Of a stretch of DNA of 64,000 bases, positions 355 to 13,766 are shown piece after piece; position 1 is the first letter of the stretch; each line of letters begins with the position of its first letter. Source of the stretch: Candidatus Saccharimonadales bacterium (GTDB lineage: Bacteria; Patescibacteriota; Saccharimonadia; Saccharimonadales; JACDBH01); the NCBI GenBank assembly GCA_041752595.1, contig JBGSWE010000003.1, positions 13,720-77,719 on the forward strand, given 5' to 3'. Made by a program: the position numbers and the translations under genes. The notes beneath the pieces are model-generated. The model had not been told where the DNA came from and ran no database searches. It saw only the letters and a list, made by a program, of their open reading frames with translations.

Positions 355-442
355 GTCCCAAGTGTTGTCAGGCGGCCCTGAGCACTTTGTTGGGACTGTC
401 CCAAGTGTTGTCGGGTGGCCCCGGAACACTTTTGGTTGGGAC
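355..442 (-). repeat. two tandem copies of a GC-rich hairpin unit (about 42-45 nt each)
   Basis: Units at 355-396 and 398-442 both start GTCCCAAGTGTTGTC and end (T)TGGGAC. The GTCCCAA/TTGGGAC arms pair. They begin 3 nt past the stop of the minus-strand ORF 445-843. Confidence 0.65.
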
Positions 443-444
443 GA

Positions 445-843
445 TCATTCGTAGAGAGGATTCACGAATGTGAATGAATCTTCTGATGAGACGGCGCGAG
501 CGTCGAAGCTGTCTTCGGTGATGATGGCGGTCTTCTCGTCGTCTGAGAAGAGATTGGAAAGGTCGATTGCCGAAGCAAACAGGGTCTTCAGGACTTTGGT
601 GACTTGAGCTTCTGTGACATCGGGGTTCATCTCGATGATGAGCTTGGTGTCGAACAACGTGATGTCGATGATTTCACCGGAGCCTTGCAAGCCACGAGCG
701 GAAGCAAGAAGCCATATGCGTGAAGAGACGGTGTTCTTGATGTTTGCGTAGCTCAGCTGCACGATTGTGCCGTCACGAAGTTTTCGGATTTGGGTGACGA
801 CGAAGGTTGCCTCGAAACATGGAACAACGTATTCGGTCTTCAT
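445..843 (-). CDS. hypothetical protein (132 aa) in a GC-elevated cassette
   Basis: ORF track. Strong SD (TAGGAGGA) lies 6 nt upstream of the ATG at 843. No recognisable motif. Confidence 0.6.
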   Translation of the reverse strand: MKTEYVVPCFEATFVVTQIRKLRDGTIVQLSYANIKNTVSSRIWLLASARGLQGSGEIIDITLFDTKLIIEMNPDVTEAQVTKVLKTLFASAIDLSNLFSDDEKTAIITEDSFDARAVSSEDSFTFVNPLYE

Positions 844-5616: not shown

Positions 5617-6135
5617 GTGGCAGTATTCAAGAAAAAAAATAGCAATTCAGTATTACCAGAAGTTGATGAATACTATCAAGCAGAACGACGCGATCGTGGT
5701 TGGTTGGCTTGGTTGCTAGCAATTATTTCGGTTATTGTTGTAGTACTTATAGTTATTGCACTGTTTTTTGCGGGTCGTTGGCTAGTAGATACAATTAACG
5801 GCGACGATAATAATGAACAGGTTGGTGTGTCTGTTAATGATGGCGCAACAAATTCTAATGACGAAAACATAAAAGTAGATGGCGGAGCAGCAGAACCAGT
5901 AGTACCTGAAAACGAGCCAGAAAGTAAGCAGACGGACTCTAGTACCGGTAACCAGAACGACCAAGGTACAGTACAGGCTCCTGCTCAAACGGAAACCCCA
6001 AGCTCAACTCCTGTTACGGGCGACGACGAACTACCTAGCACCGGTCCAGCTAGCTTGGTTAGTACATTTTTGGCCGTAAGTATTGTTGCCGGTGGGCTAC
6101 ATTACGTAGTTAGCCGCAAGCGAATTTCCAACTAA
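5617..6135 (+). CDS. LPXTG-motif cell-wall-anchor protein with an N-terminal TM segment
   Basis: The C-terminus LPSTG + hydrophobic stretch (PASLVSTFLAVSIVAGGLHYVV) + SRKRISN is a canonical sortase sorting signal. An N-terminal TM is also present. GTG start. Confidence 0.75.
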   Translation: MAVFKKKNSNSVLPEVDEYYQAERRDRGWLAWLLAIISVIVVVLIVIALFFAGRWLVDTINGDDNNEQVGVSVNDGATNSNDENIKVDGGAAEPVVPENEPESKQTDSSTGNQNDQGTVQAPAQTETPSSTPVTGDDELPSTGPASLVSTFLAVSIVAGGLHYVVSRKRISN

Positions 6136-8720: not shown

Positions 8721-9121
8721 CTTAGATACCTGGAATGCCTCTTTCAAGTAGATCTTCTTTGGTTTCGAATTCTAAATAGTTTTGAGTTAGTTCTTCACCT
8801 TGCGCTATATCACGCTCTGCAACTAAATAGGCATTTTCGTAATTTTGGTCTTGGGTTAGGTTTGCCTCAGTAGGAATGGTTTATGAATTTTGAAACATCA
8901 AAATCTACGTGCCACATTTGTGTAGGCTGGTCAAAAAAACCCCACCACCTTAACTCAACTTTTTCTTTTTCACTTAATTTATCGAATTCTGTTTGAGTAA
9001 TATTCAAATCGAGAGCGGGGCTGGCCGTATATATCAATTCATCTTTTTTAATGTCTTGGTCAGCAAATAGTCCAATACCATGCTTACTAGAATTATCTAA
9101 CTTATATTTGATATGAATCAT
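8721..9121 (-). pseudogene. SET-domain protein gene disrupted by two single-nucleotide frame shifts
   Basis: Frame 1 (9121->8870) ends ...FINHSY then TGA. The next frame (8868->8821) reads EANLTQDQNYENAYLV. A third frame (8819->8721) reads AERDIAQGEELTQNYLEFETKEDLLERGIPGI*. Joined, they give a full SET fold (GIGLFA...NHS...GEELT.NY). Confidence 0.7.
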
Positions 9122-9175: not shown

Positions 9176-9204
9176 TTGTATATAATTGTTTTAAATGATA
9201 TAAT
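9176..9204 (+). promoter_or_regulatory. sigma70-type promoter of the small-TM cassette
   Basis: TTGTAT (9176-9181), 17-nt spacer, TATAAT (9199-9204). Confidence 0.55.
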
Positions 9205-9289: not shown

Positions 9290-9517
9290 ATGTTGGAAAG
9301 ATTTGAAAACGCGTGGTTTGGTCTGGTGATTTTCATCATTGCTTGGTGCATTTTCGGCATCGCAGGCTTGATTCCTTGGGATTACTCCCAAGTAGATCCA
9401 AACTGGGAATGGCATATGAATACTCATAACGCTTGGTTGGCTTGGGGACTTTTCGTCACCCTTGCTGCAACAGCTTTTGGGTTCTTTGCCTACGCCGTCA
9501 AGCGTTGGACTGACTAG
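9290..9517 (+). CDS. small two-TM membrane protein (75 aa)
   Basis: SD AAGGAGGGAGG lies upstream of the ATG at 9290. Two hydrophobic helices, Trp-rich loop. GC is higher than the flanks. Confidence 0.65.
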   Translation: MLERFENAWFGLVIFIIAWCIFGIAGLIPWDYSQVDPNWEWHMNTHNAWLAWGLFVTLAATAFGFFAYAVKRWTD

Positions 9518-9742
9518 CCAGCACTTCAATAACTCTGCCCAGAGTATAAATCTTACGCAAGTAAGAAAGTGGTTAATGGAGAAATCCATTGTCTGCAAGG
9601 GCAAGCTATCATCTGGCAATAGATAGCTTGAGCGTACGGTCTCGATGAAATGTTAGTCTAATACCTAACTATAAGTTGAGAATAAGGCGTAAGCCAAGGG
9701 GTAGTTGAGAACTATATTTTATATATTTTTCCTACTCCTCAA

Positions 9743-9798
9743 AAAACGTCAATGAATATTTTTCATTCTGATGAGTCTAATTAAAGACGAAACGTTTT
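9743..9798 (+). ncRNA. type III hammerhead ribozyme
   Basis: AAAACGU-C / AAUGAA-UAUUU-UUCAUU / CUGAUGA / GUCU-AAUUAA-AGAC / GAA / ACGUUUU. All core positions are present, with a GUC cleavage triplet (C17 = 9750) and helices I/II/III of 6/4/7 bp. Confidence 0.88.
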
Positions 9799-9799
9799 A

Positions 9800-11032
9800 C
9801 TATTCGTAACGCAATGATTCGATGGGGTCTTTGCGGGCGGCTTTGATTGCTGGGATTGTGCCAAAAATAATACCCACAACTGCCGAAACGCCGACTGCTA
9901 CAGCAATAATTTGCCATGTTACGGCCGGTTGCAAATCTGTTGTTATCCTAAAAACTGCGTTTCCGAGTAGGGCTATAAATACACCAATCACTCCACCAAA
10001 GACACTAATTACAGCTGCTTCAATTAAGAATTGGCTGTATATCTGGCGATTTGTGGCGCCCAAGCTTTTCCTGACACCAATTTCACGAGTACGTTCAGTG
10101 ACGCTAACGAACATAATGTTCATTATTCCAATACCACCAACCAACAATGAAATAGCGGCAACACCTGCTACGAATGTTGTTGCAATAGATACTGTATCCC
10201 GAGCTATTATTTCTGTTTCGCTAGATTTTAATACAGTGAAGTCGGCTTGTCCGCCGTGAGTTATTAAGAGCTGGCTATTGGTGGCTTGAACTAGAGATTC
10301 GGGCGAAACATCTTGTTTGGGTAGTAGCATTAACTGATAGATGTTTGGTGCTCCGCCGGCCAAAGATTTAGCAACTGGAAATGGAATAAATATTGATTTA
10401 TTAAGATCTGTAACGGCACTTAGAGGGTTGGTTTTAAACTCGTCAAACACTCCACCCACGATAAAATCCTGGTCTCTGATTGATATTAGTTTACCAAGTG
10501 GTACGTTTTCCTTAAATAATTCTTCGGCTACACGTTTACCCACTACAACAACATTAGTACTAGTATCATCAAAAAACGAACCATAGACAACTTGCTGGCC
10601 TAAAACTTCTGGTAATTTGGAAGTGCTTGCAATAATTGTAGCGTCTTTGTAAGTTTCGTTTTCGAAGTTTTTTACCTGTCCAGATATTGTTGCAAGTGGA
10701 ACAACTACTTCTACATCTGGTAGTTTTTTTAATGCTTCAAAATCTTGTTCGGTTAAACTGTTGCTACCTAAGGCAGCGAGATAGTTTACGTTTGAGACAT
10801 TTCCTGACTCGTCTCTTACGGCAATTTGTCCAGAACGGACAGTAACCAGCTGCTCGTTACCAGACTGATTAGTTGATGCAACCTGGCGTCTCACGCCTTC
10901 ACCTAGCGAAACCATCATAATTACTGAGGCTACACCAATAATTATGCCCATCATTGTAAGAGTGCTTCTGAGTTTGTTGCTCCTGATTGATTCAAGAGCC
11001 ATGCGTGTATTGGTATTAAAATGGCTGGTCAT
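9800..11032 (-). CDS. ABC transporter permease, MacB/FtsX family
   Basis: N-terminal TM, large periplasmic MacB-like domain, C-terminal FtsX 3-TM block (ERTREIGVRKSLGA). Confidence 0.88.
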   Translation of the reverse strand: MTSHFNTNTRMALESIRSNKLRSTLTMMGIIIGVASVIMMVSLGEGVRRQVASTNQSGNEQLVTVRSGQIAVRDESGNVSNVNYLAALGSNSLTEQDFEALKKLPDVEVVVPLATISGQVKNFENETYKDATIIASTSKLPEVLGQQVVYGSFFDDTSTNVVVVGKRVAEELFKENVPLGKLISIRDQDFIVGGVFDEFKTNPLSAVTDLNKSIFIPFPVAKSLAGGAPNIYQLMLLPKQDVSPESLVQATNSQLLITHGGQADFTVLKSSETEIIARDTVSIATTFVAGVAAISLLVGGIGIMNIMFVSVTERTREIGVRKSLGATNRQIYSQFLIEAAVISVFGGVIGVFIALLGNAVFRITTDLQPAVTWQIIAVAVGVSAVVGIIFGTIPAIKAARKDPIESLRYE

Positions 11033-12069: not shown

Positions 12070-12159
12070 GGAGAGGTCGCCTAGTGGCCTATGGCGCCGC
12101 CTTGGAAAGGCGGTTTGGGGGCAACTCCATCGAGGGTTCGAATCCCTCTCTCTCCGCCA
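12070..12159 (+). tRNA. tRNA-Ser (anticodon GGA), long variable arm, CCA encoded
   Basis: Acceptor GGAGAGG/TCTCTCC, anticodon stem CCGCC/GGCGG with loop TTGGAAA, T-arm GAGGG-TTCGAAT-CCCTC, 18-nt variable arm, 3' GCCA. Confidence 0.9.
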
Positions 12160-12164
12160 AATTT

Positions 12165-12190
12165 AAAAACCCACCTGAGTGTGGGTTTTT
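12165..12190. terminator. bidirectional rho-independent terminator
   Basis: AAAAACCCAC (12165-12174) pairs with GTGGGTTTTT (12181-12190). A/T tracts on both sides serve the tRNA (+) and the 12219-12479 gene (-). Confidence 0.75.
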
Positions 12191-12218
12191 AAATAACTAT
12201 CTGGTCAAAATATTGGAT

Positions 12219-12479
12219 TTAGCGTTTGCGGCGTCCGCTTAGTCTAGCTAAAAAGATTGACTCAACTAAGCTCCAGATAACTGCATTTGCAAGGAAAATA
12301 GCAGATGCAACACCTGTAACAAACAAGATATCTTGGCCAGTTCTAGAATCTACTAGACTTACTAATCCAGCTGTTAATAGTGAGAACACAATTAAGAATA
12401 TGTAAATGTGCTGTAATTTTTGTCTTTCGTTTGTAGATTTATTCCACTCTAACACTGCATTAAACAATGAATTATACAT
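12219..12479 (-). CDS. small membrane protein (86 aa)
   Basis: ORF track. Two hydrophobic helices and a basic C-terminus. Confidence 0.55.
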   Translation of the reverse strand: MYNSLFNAVLEWNKSTNERQKLQHIYIFLIVFSLLTAGLVSLVDSRTGQDILFVTGVASAIFLANAVIWSLVESIFLARLSGRRKR

Positions 12480-12599
12480 CGGGTGAGTCTCCTATTTATG
12501 ATAATAATATAACATTGTTTGTGTTAATTATCAACATAGTGGTATTACTATTTTGAAAGAGTGAAATATAGGAGCATAATGAAAATACAAGGAGATATT

Positions 12600-12800
12600 A
12601 TGAAAACTAAACAAACGTATTTACTTATCGGCACAGTATTGAGTTGGGCAATTGGTTATTTGGGTGCTGATAGATTTTATAAAGGTGATGTAGCTTTGGG
12701 GGTTATCAAACTCATTACTCTAGGTGGCTTTGGTGTTTGGTGGATTATAGACGCAGCAATTTGGACCTATAATTTAGGCAAATCTCTTGATAATAAATAG
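12600..12800 (+). CDS. TM2 domain-containing membrane protein
   Basis: GYLGADRFYKGDVALGVIKLITLGGFGVWWIIDA matches the TM2 pattern. SD GGAG precedes the ATG at 12600. Confidence 0.75.
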   Translation: MKTKQTYLLIGTVLSWAIGYLGADRFYKGDVALGVIKLITLGGFGVWWIIDAAIWTYNLGKSLDNK

Positions 12801-12808
12801 TTAGATGT

Positions 12809-12866
12809 TTCACTTTTCGTCTTGATCTTAGACTCATCAGCATGACAACGTAGTCATAGAAGTGAA
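12809..12866 (-). ncRNA. type III hammerhead ribozyme
   Basis: Minus strand reads UUCACUU-C / UAUGAC-UACGUU-GUCAUG / CUGAUGA / GUCU-AAGAUCA-AGAC / GAA / AAGUGAA. Full core, C17 = 12859, helices I/II/III of 6/4/7 bp. Confidence 0.88.
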
Positions 12867-12941
12867 GATAACAGACAGATAGTTTGAGGGGTTGGCGGGA
12901 GCCGAATGCCTGGTTGTCCCAAACTGACTCTGCCTGTTATC
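12867..12941 (-). other. 13-bp hairpin directly abutting the hammerhead 5' end
   Basis: Minus-strand GATAACAGGCAGA (12941-12929) pairs with TCTGTCTGTTATC (12879-12867), with one G-U pair and a 49-nt loop. No gap before helix III of the ribozyme. Confidence 0.65.
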
Positions 12942-12972
12942 CGCACTTTATCCTTTTTTGGTTTGAGGGTTT

Positions 12973-13194
12973 TTAGGCCATCATGGCTTTGATTGGTGAT
13001 TCACGGATTGGTGCACGGAACTCCTCGGCAGTAAACTCACATTTTTCATGAGTGGCGAGGCAGGCGAAATTGCACCAACATTGTCTGCGTCCATCACATC
13101 CCTCAACCAGTGCCGATCCTCGACGAATTACAATGACGCGGGCGTCACAAACGTGTGGTGACTGTGGTTTTTGTCGGCGAAACGGGAATTTCAT
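12973..13194 (-). CDS. small Cys-rich protein (73 aa)
   Basis: ORF track. Seven Cys (CDARV, GCDGRRQCWCNFAC, HEKC) suggest metal binding. GC-rich. Confidence 0.5.
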   Translation of the reverse strand: MKFPFRRQKPQSPHVCDARVIVIRRGSALVEGCDGRRQCWCNFACLATHEKCEFTAEEFRAPIRESPIKAMMA

Positions 13195-13206
13195 CGCTTC
13201 AGTTGC

Positions 13207-13476
13207 TCAGTCGACTGGGGGCTCTTCTTCATGATCATCTGCCGTTTCATCGACGTATTCACCGTTGAGCCGGTCGACGATCTCTTGCAAGAGCTCATTT
13301 GATAGGCCATCCGGCGGTACGATGATTGTACCGTTGGTGAGTACGAATTCTTCAAAGACAATTTCTCTACCCATGACATCGTTGATCAGTACATGAGCTT
13401 GTTCGATCCTGAAATCACCCTCTGCATCGAACGACAAATCATCGTCCCCATTCTGCCAGTTGATCTTCAGTTTCAT
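13207..13476 (-). CDS. small acidic protein (89 aa)
   Basis: SD AAGGAGAG precedes the ATG at 13476 (MKLKINWQNGDDD...). Acidic C-terminus (DETADDHEEEPPVD). GC-rich. Confidence 0.6.
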   Translation of the reverse strand: MKLKINWQNGDDDLSFDAEGDFRIEQAHVLINDVMGREIVFEEFVLTNGTIIVPPDGLSNELLQEIVDRLNGEYVDETADDHEEEPPVD

Positions 13477-13766
13477 ATCTCTCCTTAGCTCACTCGCCAC
13501 GGCAGGATGCCCTCTACAACTTTAGTAAAGTGTGTGTATTTGGTAACACACAAGGTGAGTAAGGAATCCAAAATAATGATTACGAACTCTTTACTAACCT
13601 TGTGCATTGATACACATTTAACTATCTATCTGCTTGTAAAATAACTACCCTAACATTCTGCTAAGGACCTAACAAGTTTAGCAATTATAGATATTTTGTC
13701 AATTTTATACTATAGTAATCCTAATTATTATATTGAACGAAGGGTGTAAGGTAGTAGACTAGAGTC

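What the first reader, a model, noticed from the sequence alone, without database searches (positions are those of the whole stretch)
9743..9798. Complete type III hammerhead ribozyme on the plus strand, ending 1 nt from the stop codon of a convergent ABC permease gene
Read 5'->3' on the plus strand, the segment is AAAACGU-C / AAUGAA-UAUUU-UUCAUU / CUGAUGA / GUCU-AAUUAA-AGAC / GAA / ACGUUUU.

Every invariant hammerhead position is present:
- C3-A9 at 9768-9774
- G10.1-C11.1 at 9775/9788
- G12-A13-A14 at 9789-9791
- A15.1-U16.1 at 9792/9749
- a classic GUC triplet with C17 at 9750

Helix I (6 bp, closed), helix II (4 bp, closed) and helix III (7 bp, open) give exactly the type III topology. The predicted cut is after 9750.

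The element lies in non-coding sequence, at the far 3' end of a small cassette (promoter 9176-9204, 75-aa two-TM ORF 9290-9517, 225 nt of structured non-coding RNA). Its last base (9798) is 1 nt from the TAG (9800-9802) of the convergent MacB-type permease gene. I am not aware of hammerheads being described in this genomic role or in this kind of reduced genome.
Basis: partly seen in the sequence, partly recalled or inferred. Interest (0 to 1): 0.85.

Follow-up and report, generated by a model that had tools for sequence, protein, structure and literature searches.

The report
Hammerhead ribozyme pair ending small-gene transcripts
The flagged 56 bases are almost certainly a genuine self-cutting hammerhead RNA, one of two in this window and part of a large, mostly unannotated family in ultra-small (Patescibacteria/CPR) bacteria that sits just after small orphan genes, most likely trimming the ends of their transcripts.

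Summary
Window 9743-9798 (+) matches the full Rfam Hammerhead_3 model at 46.5 bits. That is 2 bits below the gathering score, with E 5e-7 for the whole window. It has the same 6/4/7-bp architecture, and its helices I and III differ by compensatory changes.

A search of 185,579 species genomes with only the core plus helix II gave 102 matches. Seventy of them are complete type III hammerheads, overwhelmingly in Patescibacteria/CPR genomes. An 80-sequence alignment shows strong covariation, with 16 of 18 pairs changed on both sides.

The elements sit after the stop of a same-strand, usually orphan, small gene. A stable hairpin often abuts them on the 5' side. The 3' end frequently lies 0-9 nt from a convergent gene's stop codon, as both do here.

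Best reading: co-transcriptional self-cleavage defines a hairpin-capped mRNA 3' end and detaches read-through RNA. Catalysis and function are untested. Bacterial intergenic hammerheads are already known, so this is a new member of a known kind. The CPR-wide family is the more interesting by-product.

The parts
9743..9798 (+). HH1, a type III hammerhead. Helix III 5' strand 9743-9749; C17 at 9750 (predicted cut after 9750); helix I hairpin 9751-9767; core CUGAUGA 9768-9774; helix II hairpin 9775-9788; GAA 9789-9791; helix III 3' strand 9792-9798.
   Evidence: Sequence. Rfam RF00008 at 46.5 bits, E 5e-7 over the window. Own CM R1 at 56.1 bits, though HH1 is a training member. Strict motif hit in 0 of 300 shuffles.
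12809..12866 (-). It reads UUCACUU-C / UAUGAC-UACGUU-GUCAUG / CUGAUGA / GUCU-AAGAUCA-AGAC / GAA / AAGUGAA. The predicted cut is after C17 at 12859.
   Evidence: Own motif scan. Rfam RF00008 at 36.5 bits, E 3.3e-4 over the window, full model. The hammerhead fold is essentially the MFE, -12.0 against -12.1.
9697..9739 (+). Stable hairpin (AGGGGUAG...CUACUCCU, -13.5 kcal/mol) ending 3 nt before HH1. After cleavage it would sit 11 nt from the new 3' end.
   Evidence: MFE folds. Hairpins abutting the hammerhead are enriched across the family.
12867..12941 (-). Long imperfect hairpin (75 nt, -28.5 kcal/mol) directly abutting the 5' end of HH2.
9518..9742 (+). 225-nt structured 3' UTR between the 75-aa ORF and HH1. 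No Rfam match.
   Evidence: z = -4.1 on the + strand against -1.0 on the - strand. No Rfam family at E <= 1.
9290..9517 (+). 75-aa orphan ORF with a strong Shine-Dalgarno sequence (AAGGAGG). It is the gene whose transcript HH1 would end.
   Evidence: No Pfam family. Only two protein clusters among 5.8 billion. A gene is called here on independent assemblies.
9176..9204 (+). Putative promoter of cassette 1: TTGTAT, 17 nt, TG-n-TATAAT.
   Evidence: Read from the sequence. Not listed by the consensus scan because the -35 matches only 3 of 6. Inferred.
13207..13476 (-). 89-aa acidic orphan ORF, the gene upstream of HH2. About 340 nt separates its stop from HH2. The 73-aa ORF at 12973-13194 was not called as a gene on an independent assembly.
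   Evidence: no relatives; gene calls.
13675..13702 (-). Promoter-like site for cassette 2: TTGACA, 16 nt, TAAACT, with TG.
   Evidence: 10 of 12 matches. Function inferred.
9800..11032 (-). Convergent MacB-type ABC permease gene. Its TAG stop (9800-9802) lies 1 nt from the 3' end of HH1.
12561..12800 (+). Convergent TM2-domain gene. Its TAG stop (12798-12800) lies 8 nt from the 3' end of HH2.

Best explanation
HH1 (9743-9798, +) and HH2 (12809-12866, -) are genuine type III hammerhead self-cleaving ribozymes. They belong to a compact (about 50-58 nt) family that is abundant in Patescibacteria/CPR genomes.

Each is transcribed as the last element of a small orphan-gene transcription unit. The order is promoter, ORF of 75 or 89 aa, long structured 3' UTR, stable hairpin, hammerhead.

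Proposed mechanism, step by step:
1. As RNA polymerase reads through, the ribozyme folds.
2. It cuts after C17 (after 9750 in HH1, after 12859 in HH2).
3. The upstream mRNA is left with a defined 3' end: a hairpin plus a tail of about 8-11 nt carrying a 2',3'-cyclic phosphate.
4. The ribozyme body stays on the downstream RNA, which starts with a 5'-OH.

In this window the downstream RNA would be antisense to the convergent permease and TM2 genes. Cleavage therefore disconnects the mRNA from read-through antisense RNA and substitutes for an intrinsic terminator, which is not detectable at either site. In co-directional contexts elsewhere, the same module would cut polycistronic RNA into separate units.

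Shown: motif, significance, second copy, family covariation, strand specificity, genomic placement, hairpin enrichment.
Inferred: transcription through the element, catalysis, and the consequences for RNA stability or termination.
For: Identity:
- Full-length Rfam Hammerhead_3 matches for both copies.
- The strict motif is absent from 300 shuffles.
- The two copies share the core and helix II but differ by compensatory changes in helices I and III.

Family:
- A genome-collection scan used only CUGAUGA + GUCU-loop-AGAC + GAAA. It put no requirement on helices I or III.
- It gave 102 matches, of which 70 are complete type III hammerheads.
- In an 80-sequence alignment, 92.6% of cells are paired. 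The covariation score is 0.76, against 0.21 when shuffled (0 of 500 shuffles as high) and <=0.135 for slid controls. Sixteen of 18 pairs change on both sides.
- RNAalifold independently recovers the three-way junction.

Strand specificity:
- 19 U-G pairs at one helix I position would be C-A mismatches on the other strand.
- The 3' UTR folds at z -4.1 on the sense strand against -1.0 on the antisense strand.

Placement:
- Among intergenic copies with both neighbours called, 50 of 61 follow a same-strand gene.
- 31 are followed by a co-directional gene and 19 by a convergent gene.
- Distances to a convergent stop of 0-9 nt recur in at least 12 loci besides the two here.

Hairpin:
- The 70 nt upstream of the hammerhead have mean z -2.8, against -1.3 downstream (Wilcoxon p 1.6e-5).
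- In 76% of loci the last upstream helix ends <=3 nt from helix III, against 49% and 34% in controls.
- A positional profile peaks 5-17 nt before C17.

Terminators: none is detected near either hammerhead.

Precedent: clustered bacterial and prophage hammerheads that flank hypothetical genes cleave long transcripts in vitro and were proposed to process polycistronic RNA (PMC3088659; PMC6765202).
Against: - No cleavage assay or transcript data exists for this organism.
- Both copies score below the Rfam gathering threshold (46.5 and 36.5 against 48.5).
- HH1 is AU-rich. Its hammerhead fold is 1 kcal/mol above an alternative that sequesters part of the core, with P(HH helices) about 0.07 in the nearest-neighbour ensemble.
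- The loop-loop tertiary contact needed for fast cleavage at physiological Mg2+ could not be identified. Both window copies have larger loops than the family consensus.
- Most sequences in the covariation alignment were chosen by a scan that required pairing, so the percent-paired figure is inflated. The 70-of-102 result is the unbiased one.
- The hairpin enrichment is moderate, and MFE end effects inflate the controls.
- No orthologous loci were found in which to test conservation of HH1 or HH2 themselves.
Confidence: 0.65

Rival explanations
1. The hammerheads are real and active, but they serve the cassette rather than the host. The orphan-gene plus hammerhead units would be remnants or cargo of phage-like or other mobile DNA. 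The ribozyme would do the element's own RNA processing, such as timing or stability control during infection, or possibly cleavage-ligation.
For: - Genes upstream of the 81 family copies are almost all orphans. Only about 17 Pfam and 13 PHROG families are hit, each by a single member.
- Both window ORFs have essentially no relatives among 5.8 billion proteins.
- A tRNA-Ser gene lies between the two cassettes.
- Relatives of the neighbouring permease in 80 metagenome loci carry no hammerhead, so HH1 is a lineage-specific addition.
- Bacterial hammerheads are classically associated with prophages.
- Three or four CPR-like type III copies occur in IMG/VR viral contigs.
Against: - No integrase, repeats or other mobile-element hallmarks flank the cassettes. 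The only similarity between the two cassettes is the hammerhead core.
- PHROG hits among upstream genes are scattered, with no enrichment.
- In viral contigs the same core pattern is overwhelmingly type I (106 of 122), not the CPR type III form.
- The two window copies are in inverted orientation, so they cannot excise a common RNA segment.
Confidence: 0.2
2. The sequence acts mainly as a structure, not a catalyst. The hairpin plus three-way junction would be a bidirectional terminator or RNA-stabilising palindrome shared by the two convergent genes. The hammerhead core would be inactive or incidental.
For: - HH1 helix III is an A-tract/U-tract pair (AAAACGU/ACGUUUU). On the antisense strand the structure is followed by UUUUUU.
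- For HH2, the abutting hairpin read on the + strand is followed by UAUCCUUUUUU. It could therefore terminate the TM2 gene.
- The elements sit 1 and 8 nt from convergent stop codons.
Against: - A structural role does not explain absolute conservation of the 13 invariant catalytic-core positions across 80 sequences while the helices vary freely.
- Across the family, flanks of the hairpin show no A-tract or U-tract signature: 3.3 A per 10 nt upstream, and helix III 3' strands are A-rich.
- Most copies lie between co-directional genes.
- The terminator scan finds nothing at either site.
- U-G pairs make the fold strand-specific.
Confidence: 0.08
3. Chance resemblance: an AT-rich intergenic sequence that happens to match the hammerhead descriptor.
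For: The Rfam score is below gathering. The isolated 56-mer does not fold better than shuffles (z -1.2).
Against: - E 5e-7 for the window.
- 0 of 300 shuffles contain the strict motif.
- A second, compensatorily different copy lies 3 kb away.
- There are dozens of relatives with covariation.
Confidence: 0.02

Closest known systems
Type III hammerhead ribozymes (Rfam RF00008, Hammerhead_3)
   Same: Identical catalytic core (C3-A9, G12-A14, A15.1-U16.1, H17). Helices I and II are closed and helix III is open. The alignment to the model is full-length.
   Different: Both window copies, and most CPR relatives, score below the curated gathering threshold. Only 3 of about 40 copies in 18 loci pass it. 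The CPR form is very compact: helix I of 6-7 bp with a 4-6 nt loop, and helix II of 4 bp, usually with a GAAA or AAAA loop. It is encoded in DNA genomes of bacteria, not in viroids, satellites or retrozymes.
Clustered bacterial and prophage hammerheads flanking hypothetical genes (Perreault et al. 2011, PMC3088659)
   Same: Intergenic location. Neighbouring genes are variable and mostly unannotated. Several copies occur within a few kb on one strand (for example 4 in L062, 3 each in L010, L025, L060, L093). The proposed role is cutting long transcripts into gene-length RNAs.
   Different: Those examples are mostly type II or type I in prophages of well-studied phyla. Here the type is III and the hosts are CPR bacteria. 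In viral contigs the same core pattern is 87% type I. The recurrent 5'-abutting hairpin and the tight apposition to convergent stop codons did not come up in the passages of that paper I searched.
Ribozyme-based insulators and 3'-UTR ribozymes (twister in bacterial 3' UTR reporters; the synthetic RiboJ design, from my own knowledge)
   Same: A self-cleaving ribozyme combined with a hairpin standardises transcript ends and uncouples neighbouring RNA segments. 3'-UTR ribozymes alter expression in reporters (PMC6765202).
   Different: RiboJ is an engineered 5'-UTR device with the hairpin downstream of the ribozyme. Here the arrangement is natural, at the 3' end, with the hairpin upstream so that it stays on the 5' product.
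Intrinsic (Rho-independent) terminators
   Same: Position at the end of a transcription unit. The resulting RNA would end in a stable hairpin followed by a short pyrimidine-rich tail.
   Different: The end would be made by RNA self-cleavage, not by polymerase release. There is no U-tract. The product would carry a 2',3'-cyclic phosphate, and polymerase would continue downstream.

Membership tests
Hammerhead ribozyme (class) | Conserved catalytic core: C3 U4 G5 A6 N7 G8 A9, G12 A13 A14, the A15.1-U16.1 pair, and a non-G at position 17 | tested here: met
   HH1 has CUGAUGA at 9768-9774, GAA at 9789-9791, A9792-U9749 and C9750. HH2 has the same core with a UUC triplet.
Hammerhead ribozyme (class) | Three helices radiating from the core, supported by covariation | tested here: met
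   Helices of 6/4/7 bp in both copies. In the 80-sequence family alignment, 16 of 18 pairs change on both sides, and the covariation score is 0.76 against 0.21 shuffled. RNAalifold recovers the junction. Caveat: most aligned sequences were picked by a pairing-dependent scan. The unbiased figure is 70 of 102 core-only matches being complete.
Hammerhead ribozyme, type III topology | Helices I and II closed by loops; helix III open and carrying the 5' and 3' ends | tested here: met
Rfam RF00008 Hammerhead_3 | Bit score at or above the curated gathering threshold (48.5) | tested here: not met
   HH1 scores 46.5 bits and HH2 36.5 bits. E-values of 5e-7 and 3.3e-4 are still significant. Typical CPR relatives also mostly fall below the threshold. 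This is a database cut-off, not a biochemical criterion.
Hammerhead ribozyme (class) | Site-specific Mg2+-dependent self-cleavage giving 2',3'-cyclic phosphate and 5'-OH ends | not testable with these tools
   No experiment or transcript-end data is available.
Natural (full-length) hammerheads | Tertiary contact between loops or bulges of helices I and II | tested here: inconclusive
   HH1 loops UAUUU and AAUUAA could form a 3-bp AUU/AAU contact. No convincing pairing is visible in HH2 (UACGUU and AAGAUCA). Helices I and II differ by two base pairs, the geometry that Perreault et al. associate with a pseudoknot in type III. This rests on inspection only.
Clustered bacterial/prophage hammerheads (Perreault 2011) | Several copies close together flanking variable, mostly hypothetical genes | tested here: met
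   Two copies lie 3 kb apart in the window. Fifteen related loci have 2-4 copies within 8 kb. Upstream genes are unrelated orphans.
Clustered bacterial/prophage hammerheads (Perreault 2011) | Prophage context | tested here: inconclusive
   No phage hallmark genes lie next to the window cassettes. PHROG hits in the family are scattered. A few CPR-like copies occur in viral contigs.
Intrinsic terminator | G+C-rich hairpin followed directly by a U-tract | tested here: not met
   The scan finds none at either site. HH1's hairpin is followed by CAAAAAACG. Family-wide tails are YCUGUY-like, not U-tracts.

The most novel reading that the evidence does not exclude
CPR/Patescibacteria may have adopted a compact 'hairpin + type III hammerhead' module as a general, protein-independent way to make mRNA 3' ends and to punctuate operons. 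It would partly stand in for intrinsic terminators and for RNase-based processing in these reduced genomes. It would also explain why the module is wedged within 0-9 nt of convergent stop codons. If so, self-cleaving RNA would be a routine part of gene-expression architecture in a major bacterial radiation, not a phage curiosity. The family would also be largely invisible to standard annotation, because most copies fall below the Rfam threshold.
Probability: 0.25. Interest if true: 0.75.

Novelty: new member of a known kind. Interest (0 to 1): 0.42.

Why it matters
The biological role of genomically encoded bacterial hammerheads is still described as largely elusive (PMC6765202).

This window gives two clean, simple cases. 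Each has one promoter, one small ORF, one hairpin, one ribozyme and a convergent gene. The consequence of cleavage (3'-end definition, mRNA stability, suppression of antisense read-through) could be measured directly.

The wider by-product matters more than the single element. It is a covarying type III family concentrated in CPR genomes, mostly below the Rfam threshold, and often paired with a 5' hairpin. This suggests that ribozyme-made RNA ends may be common in these reduced genomes, and that current annotation undercounts them.

If the element is only another intergenic hammerhead next to orphan genes, it is a routine addition to a well-known class.

Tried and rejected
1. Synteny through the neighbouring permease. 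Eighty metagenome loci encoding relatives (30-53% identity) were scanned with the family model and none has a hammerhead. HH1 is therefore not linked to the ABC transporter, and no orthologous copy was obtained.

2. Homologues of the two upstream ORFs. The 75-aa protein has one distant relative, on a 688-bp contig too short to reach the 3' UTR. The 89-aa protein has none. Ortholog-level covariation could not be tested. The only other assemblies carrying the locus are 100% identical.

3. Gene-family enrichment upstream of the family's hammerheads. All-against-all BLAST, Pfam and PHROGs show no shared family.

4. A mobile element bounded by the two inverted hammerheads. The only repeat between the cassettes is the 21-nt ribozyme core.

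5. The hairpin as a terminator. No A-tract or U-tract flanks it family-wide, and there are no terminator calls.

6. A third hammerhead. The relaxed hit at 433-511 (+) is not supported by Rfam or by the family model. A filter-off scan of the window with the family model finds only HH1 and HH2.

7. Organism name. Cluster look-ups gave no names. The assignment to Saccharibacteria rests on 72.6% identity of the window's Cpn60 to a Saccharibacteria MAG, and on helix I sequences resembling Saccharibacteria copies.

8. Loop-loop pseudoknot. Inspection was inconclusive.

9. My first positional hairpin test suffers from MFE end effects. The offset profile is cleaner but shows only about two-fold enrichment.

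Full report
**1. The observation**

The 56 bases at 9743-9798 (+) read exactly as reported.

The convergent ORF at 9800-11032 (-) carries MacB_PCD and FtsX domains. It ends with TAG at 9800-9802, 1 nt from the element.

Rfam's default gathering scan of the window reports only a tRNA. The Hammerhead_3 match scores 46.5 bits against a gathering score of 48.5. With E-value reporting, the match covers the whole model (1-54). E is 1.8e-9 locally and 5e-7 for the whole window.

A descriptor scan of my own found the strict architecture (helices >=6/4/7 bp) in none of 300 Markov shuffles of the window.

**2. A second copy**

The same scan, and Rfam at E 3.3e-4, found a second type III hammerhead on the minus strand at 12809-12866. 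It has the same core and the same helix II (GUCU/AGAC). Helices I and III have the same lengths (6 and 7 bp) but different, mutually compensating sequences.

Its 3' end lies 8 nt from the TAG of a convergent TM2-domain gene, 12561-12800 (+).

A filter-off search of the window with a family covariance model finds only these two.

**3. The family**

I scanned one genome per species (185,579 species) for CTGATGAGTCT-N4-9-AGACGAAA. This pattern specifies the core and helix II only. It gave 97 loci and 102 matches.
- 70 matches have complete helices I and III in type III topology.
- 10 are type I.
- 22 are not hammerheads and look like chance matches.

Locus labels for the type III copies:
- About 40 are labelled Saccharibacteria/Saccharimonadales, Shapiro-, Taylor-, Woese-, Doudna- or Nomurabacteria, Paceibacterota, Minisyncoccia or 'Patescibacteria group'.
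- 12 are unnamed 'bacterium' bins.
- 9 are bins labelled Gammaproteobacteria or Pseudomonadales. Two of these (L064, L099) carry a hammerhead and upstream gene nearly identical to those of a Shapirobacteria MAG (L098), so the labels are doubtful.
- Only about 6 come from other lineages.

Scanning the fetched loci by structure added further copies with other helix II sequences, giving 87 distinct sequences.

An 80-sequence MAFFT alignment has 13 invariant core columns. On the hammerhead structure:
- 92.6% of cells pair.
- 16 of 18 pairs change on both sides.
- The covariation score is 0.76, against 0.21 in shuffles and <=0.135 for slid partners.

RNAalifold predicts the same junction unaided.

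Caveat: the added copies were selected for pairing. The clean statistic is therefore the 70 of 102.

Nineteen U-G pairs at one helix I position make the fold specific to the sense strand.

In IMG/VR viral contigs the same pattern is 106 type I, 8 type III and 8 with no hammerhead. The CPR type III form is thus a distinct population.

Only 3 of about 40 copies in 18 CPR loci reach the Rfam gathering score. Threshold-based annotation therefore misses most of them, including both copies here.

**4. Context**

Among intergenic family copies with both neighbours called, 50 of 61 follow a same-strand gene. Of those, 31 are followed by a co-directional gene and 19 by a convergent one. The upstream stop is typically 30-230 nt away.

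Distances of 0-9 nt between the hammerhead's 3' end and a convergent stop codon recur in a dozen or more independent loci. The 1-nt and 8-nt spacings in this window are therefore the rule for this family, not an oddity.

Fifteen loci have 2-4 copies within 8 kb, often one after each small ORF.

The upstream proteins are unrelated to each other and almost devoid of Pfam or PHROG matches. The two window ORFs (75 aa and 89 aa) are orphans among 5.8 billion proteins.

Relatives of the permease in 80 metagenome loci have no hammerhead.

**5. A hairpin partner**

The 225-nt 3' UTR before HH1 folds far better than shuffles on the sense strand only (z -4.1 against -1.0).

Across 87 family copies:
- The 70 nt upstream have mean z -2.8, against -1.3 downstream (p 1.6e-5).
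- Inspection shows a stable hairpin whose 3' arm usually ends 0-3 nt before helix III. This holds in 76% of loci, against 49% and 34% in two controls.
- An offset profile, free of differential end effects, peaks 5-17 nt upstream of C17 at about twice background.

The window follows the pattern. Hairpin 9697-9739 ends 3 nt before HH1, and hairpin 12941-12867 abuts HH2.

The hairpin flanks show no A-tract or U-tract signature. No intrinsic terminator is called near either hammerhead.

This hairpin association is my own preliminary observation and needs an unbiased census.

**6. Mechanism**

Established hammerhead chemistry predicts a cut 3' of C17, giving a 2',3'-cyclic phosphate and a 5'-OH.

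With type III topology, nearly the whole ribozyme stays on the downstream fragment. The upstream mRNA would end in the hairpin plus a short tail.

I therefore read the module as a transcript-end maker and separator.
- In convergent settings such as both sites here, it would give the small-gene mRNA a protected, defined 3' end. It would also detach any read-through RNA that is antisense to the neighbouring gene.
- Between co-directional genes, it would cut polycistronic RNA.

This matches the role proposed for clustered bacterial and prophage hammerheads (PMC3088659). It also matches the view that 3'-UTR ribozymes can tune expression (PMC6765202).

Transcription, catalysis and the downstream consequences are all inferred.

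The hammerhead fold is energetically accessible:
- HH2: -12.0 kcal/mol against an MFE of -12.1.
- HH1: -8.8 kcal/mol against an MFE of -9.8.

HH1 is AU-rich, and its tertiary loop contact is unresolved.

**7. Rivals**

- A selfish or phage-derived cassette role is compatible with the orphan genes and the lineage-specific presence. It lacks any mobile-element hallmark.
- A purely structural terminator role fails to explain the invariant catalytic core, and it lacks U-tracts.
- Chance is excluded by the second copy and the family.

**8. Comparison and novelty**

The element is a hammerhead by every sequence and structure criterion I could test. It narrowly fails the Rfam score cut-off, and its activity is untestable here.

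Intergenic bacterial hammerheads next to hypothetical genes are known, so the element itself is a new member of a known kind.

I found no paper in the held library that mentions hammerheads or self-cleaving ribozymes together with CPR, Patescibacteria, Saccharibacteria, TM7, Parcubacteria or Microgenomates. The library omits most subscription journals, so this is absence of evidence only.

The window is probably from a Saccharibacteria genome. Its Cpn60 is 72.6% identical to that of a Saccharibacteria MAG, and helix I resembles Saccharibacteria copies.

**9. Verdict**

Interest is moderate at 0.42. The single element is ordinary for a specialist. The CPR-wide, under-annotated family with its hairpin partner and tight packing against convergent genes is worth a dedicated follow-up.

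Noticed in passing
It is in inverted orientation to the first, 3 kb away, and ends 8 nt from the stop of a convergent TM2-domain gene.
   Followed up: yes
L003-L099 (genome-contig loci), e.g. L062:203-2171, L093:1952-4066, L060:4261-7438: A compact type III hammerhead family is concentrated in Patescibacteria/CPR MAGs. There are often 2-4 copies per 8 kb, one after each small orphan ORF. Most copies score below the Rfam gathering threshold.
   Followed up: yes
window 9697-9739 (+) and 12867-12941 (-); family loci: A stable hairpin commonly ends 0-3 nt before helix III of these hammerheads. After cleavage it would cap the upstream RNA. I did not see this mentioned in the passages I searched of the two papers I consulted.
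   Followed up: partly
window 9518-9742 (+): The 225-nt 3' UTR has strand-specific, strongly non-random folding (z -4.1 against -1.0 antisense) and no Rfam match. It could be an independent small RNA whose 3' end the hammerhead makes.
   Followed up: partly
window 12867-13206 (-): About 340 nt separates the 89-aa ORF from HH2. It contains a 73-aa Cys-rich ORF (12973-13194) that an independent gene call did not accept, so coding status is unresolved.
   Followed up: partly
window 12070-12159 (+) and 12161-12194: A tRNA-Ser(GGA) is followed by a perfect 14-nt inverted repeat (ATTTAAAAACCCAC / GTGGGTTTTTAAAT). This is a bidirectional terminator-like palindrome shared with the convergent 86-aa membrane ORF (12219-12479, -).
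   Followed up: no
window 13476-13702 (-): A long (about 200 nt) leader lies between the promoter-like site and the 89-aa ORF. It contains an inverted repeat (13516-13538 / 13581-13603) and may be a regulatory 5' UTR.
   Followed up: no
L100-L219 (IMG/VR viral contigs): The same core + helix II pattern in viral contigs is almost entirely type I hammerheads. They fall into a few highly repeated sequence families, e.g. GGTTAACTGATGAGTCTT... and TGTCACTGATGAGTCTGTGAAATCCAGACGAAACACTTTGTGTCTGACA.
   Followed up: partly
L064, L099 versus L098: MAGs labelled 'uncultured Gammaproteobacteria' carry a hammerhead, hairpin and upstream gene nearly identical to those of a Candidatus Shapirobacteria MAG. 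This suggests wrong taxonomic labels on some TPA bins.
   Followed up: no
L029:1137-1191 (-): A CPR-style type III hammerhead sits in a bin labelled Candidatus Pacearchaeota (DPANN archaeon). It is either a mis-binned contig or evidence that the family extends to ultra-small archaea.
   Followed up: no
L030:4909-4977 (+): A DUF3800-IX RNA (RF02968) passes the Rfam gathering score in the same 8-kb locus that carries three hammerheads.
   Followed up: no
window 8867-9121 (-) and 5617-6135 (+): An 84-aa SET-domain ORF lies immediately upstream of cassette 1. A 172-aa repetitive protein with a weak LPXTG-anchor match lies nearby.
   Followed up: no
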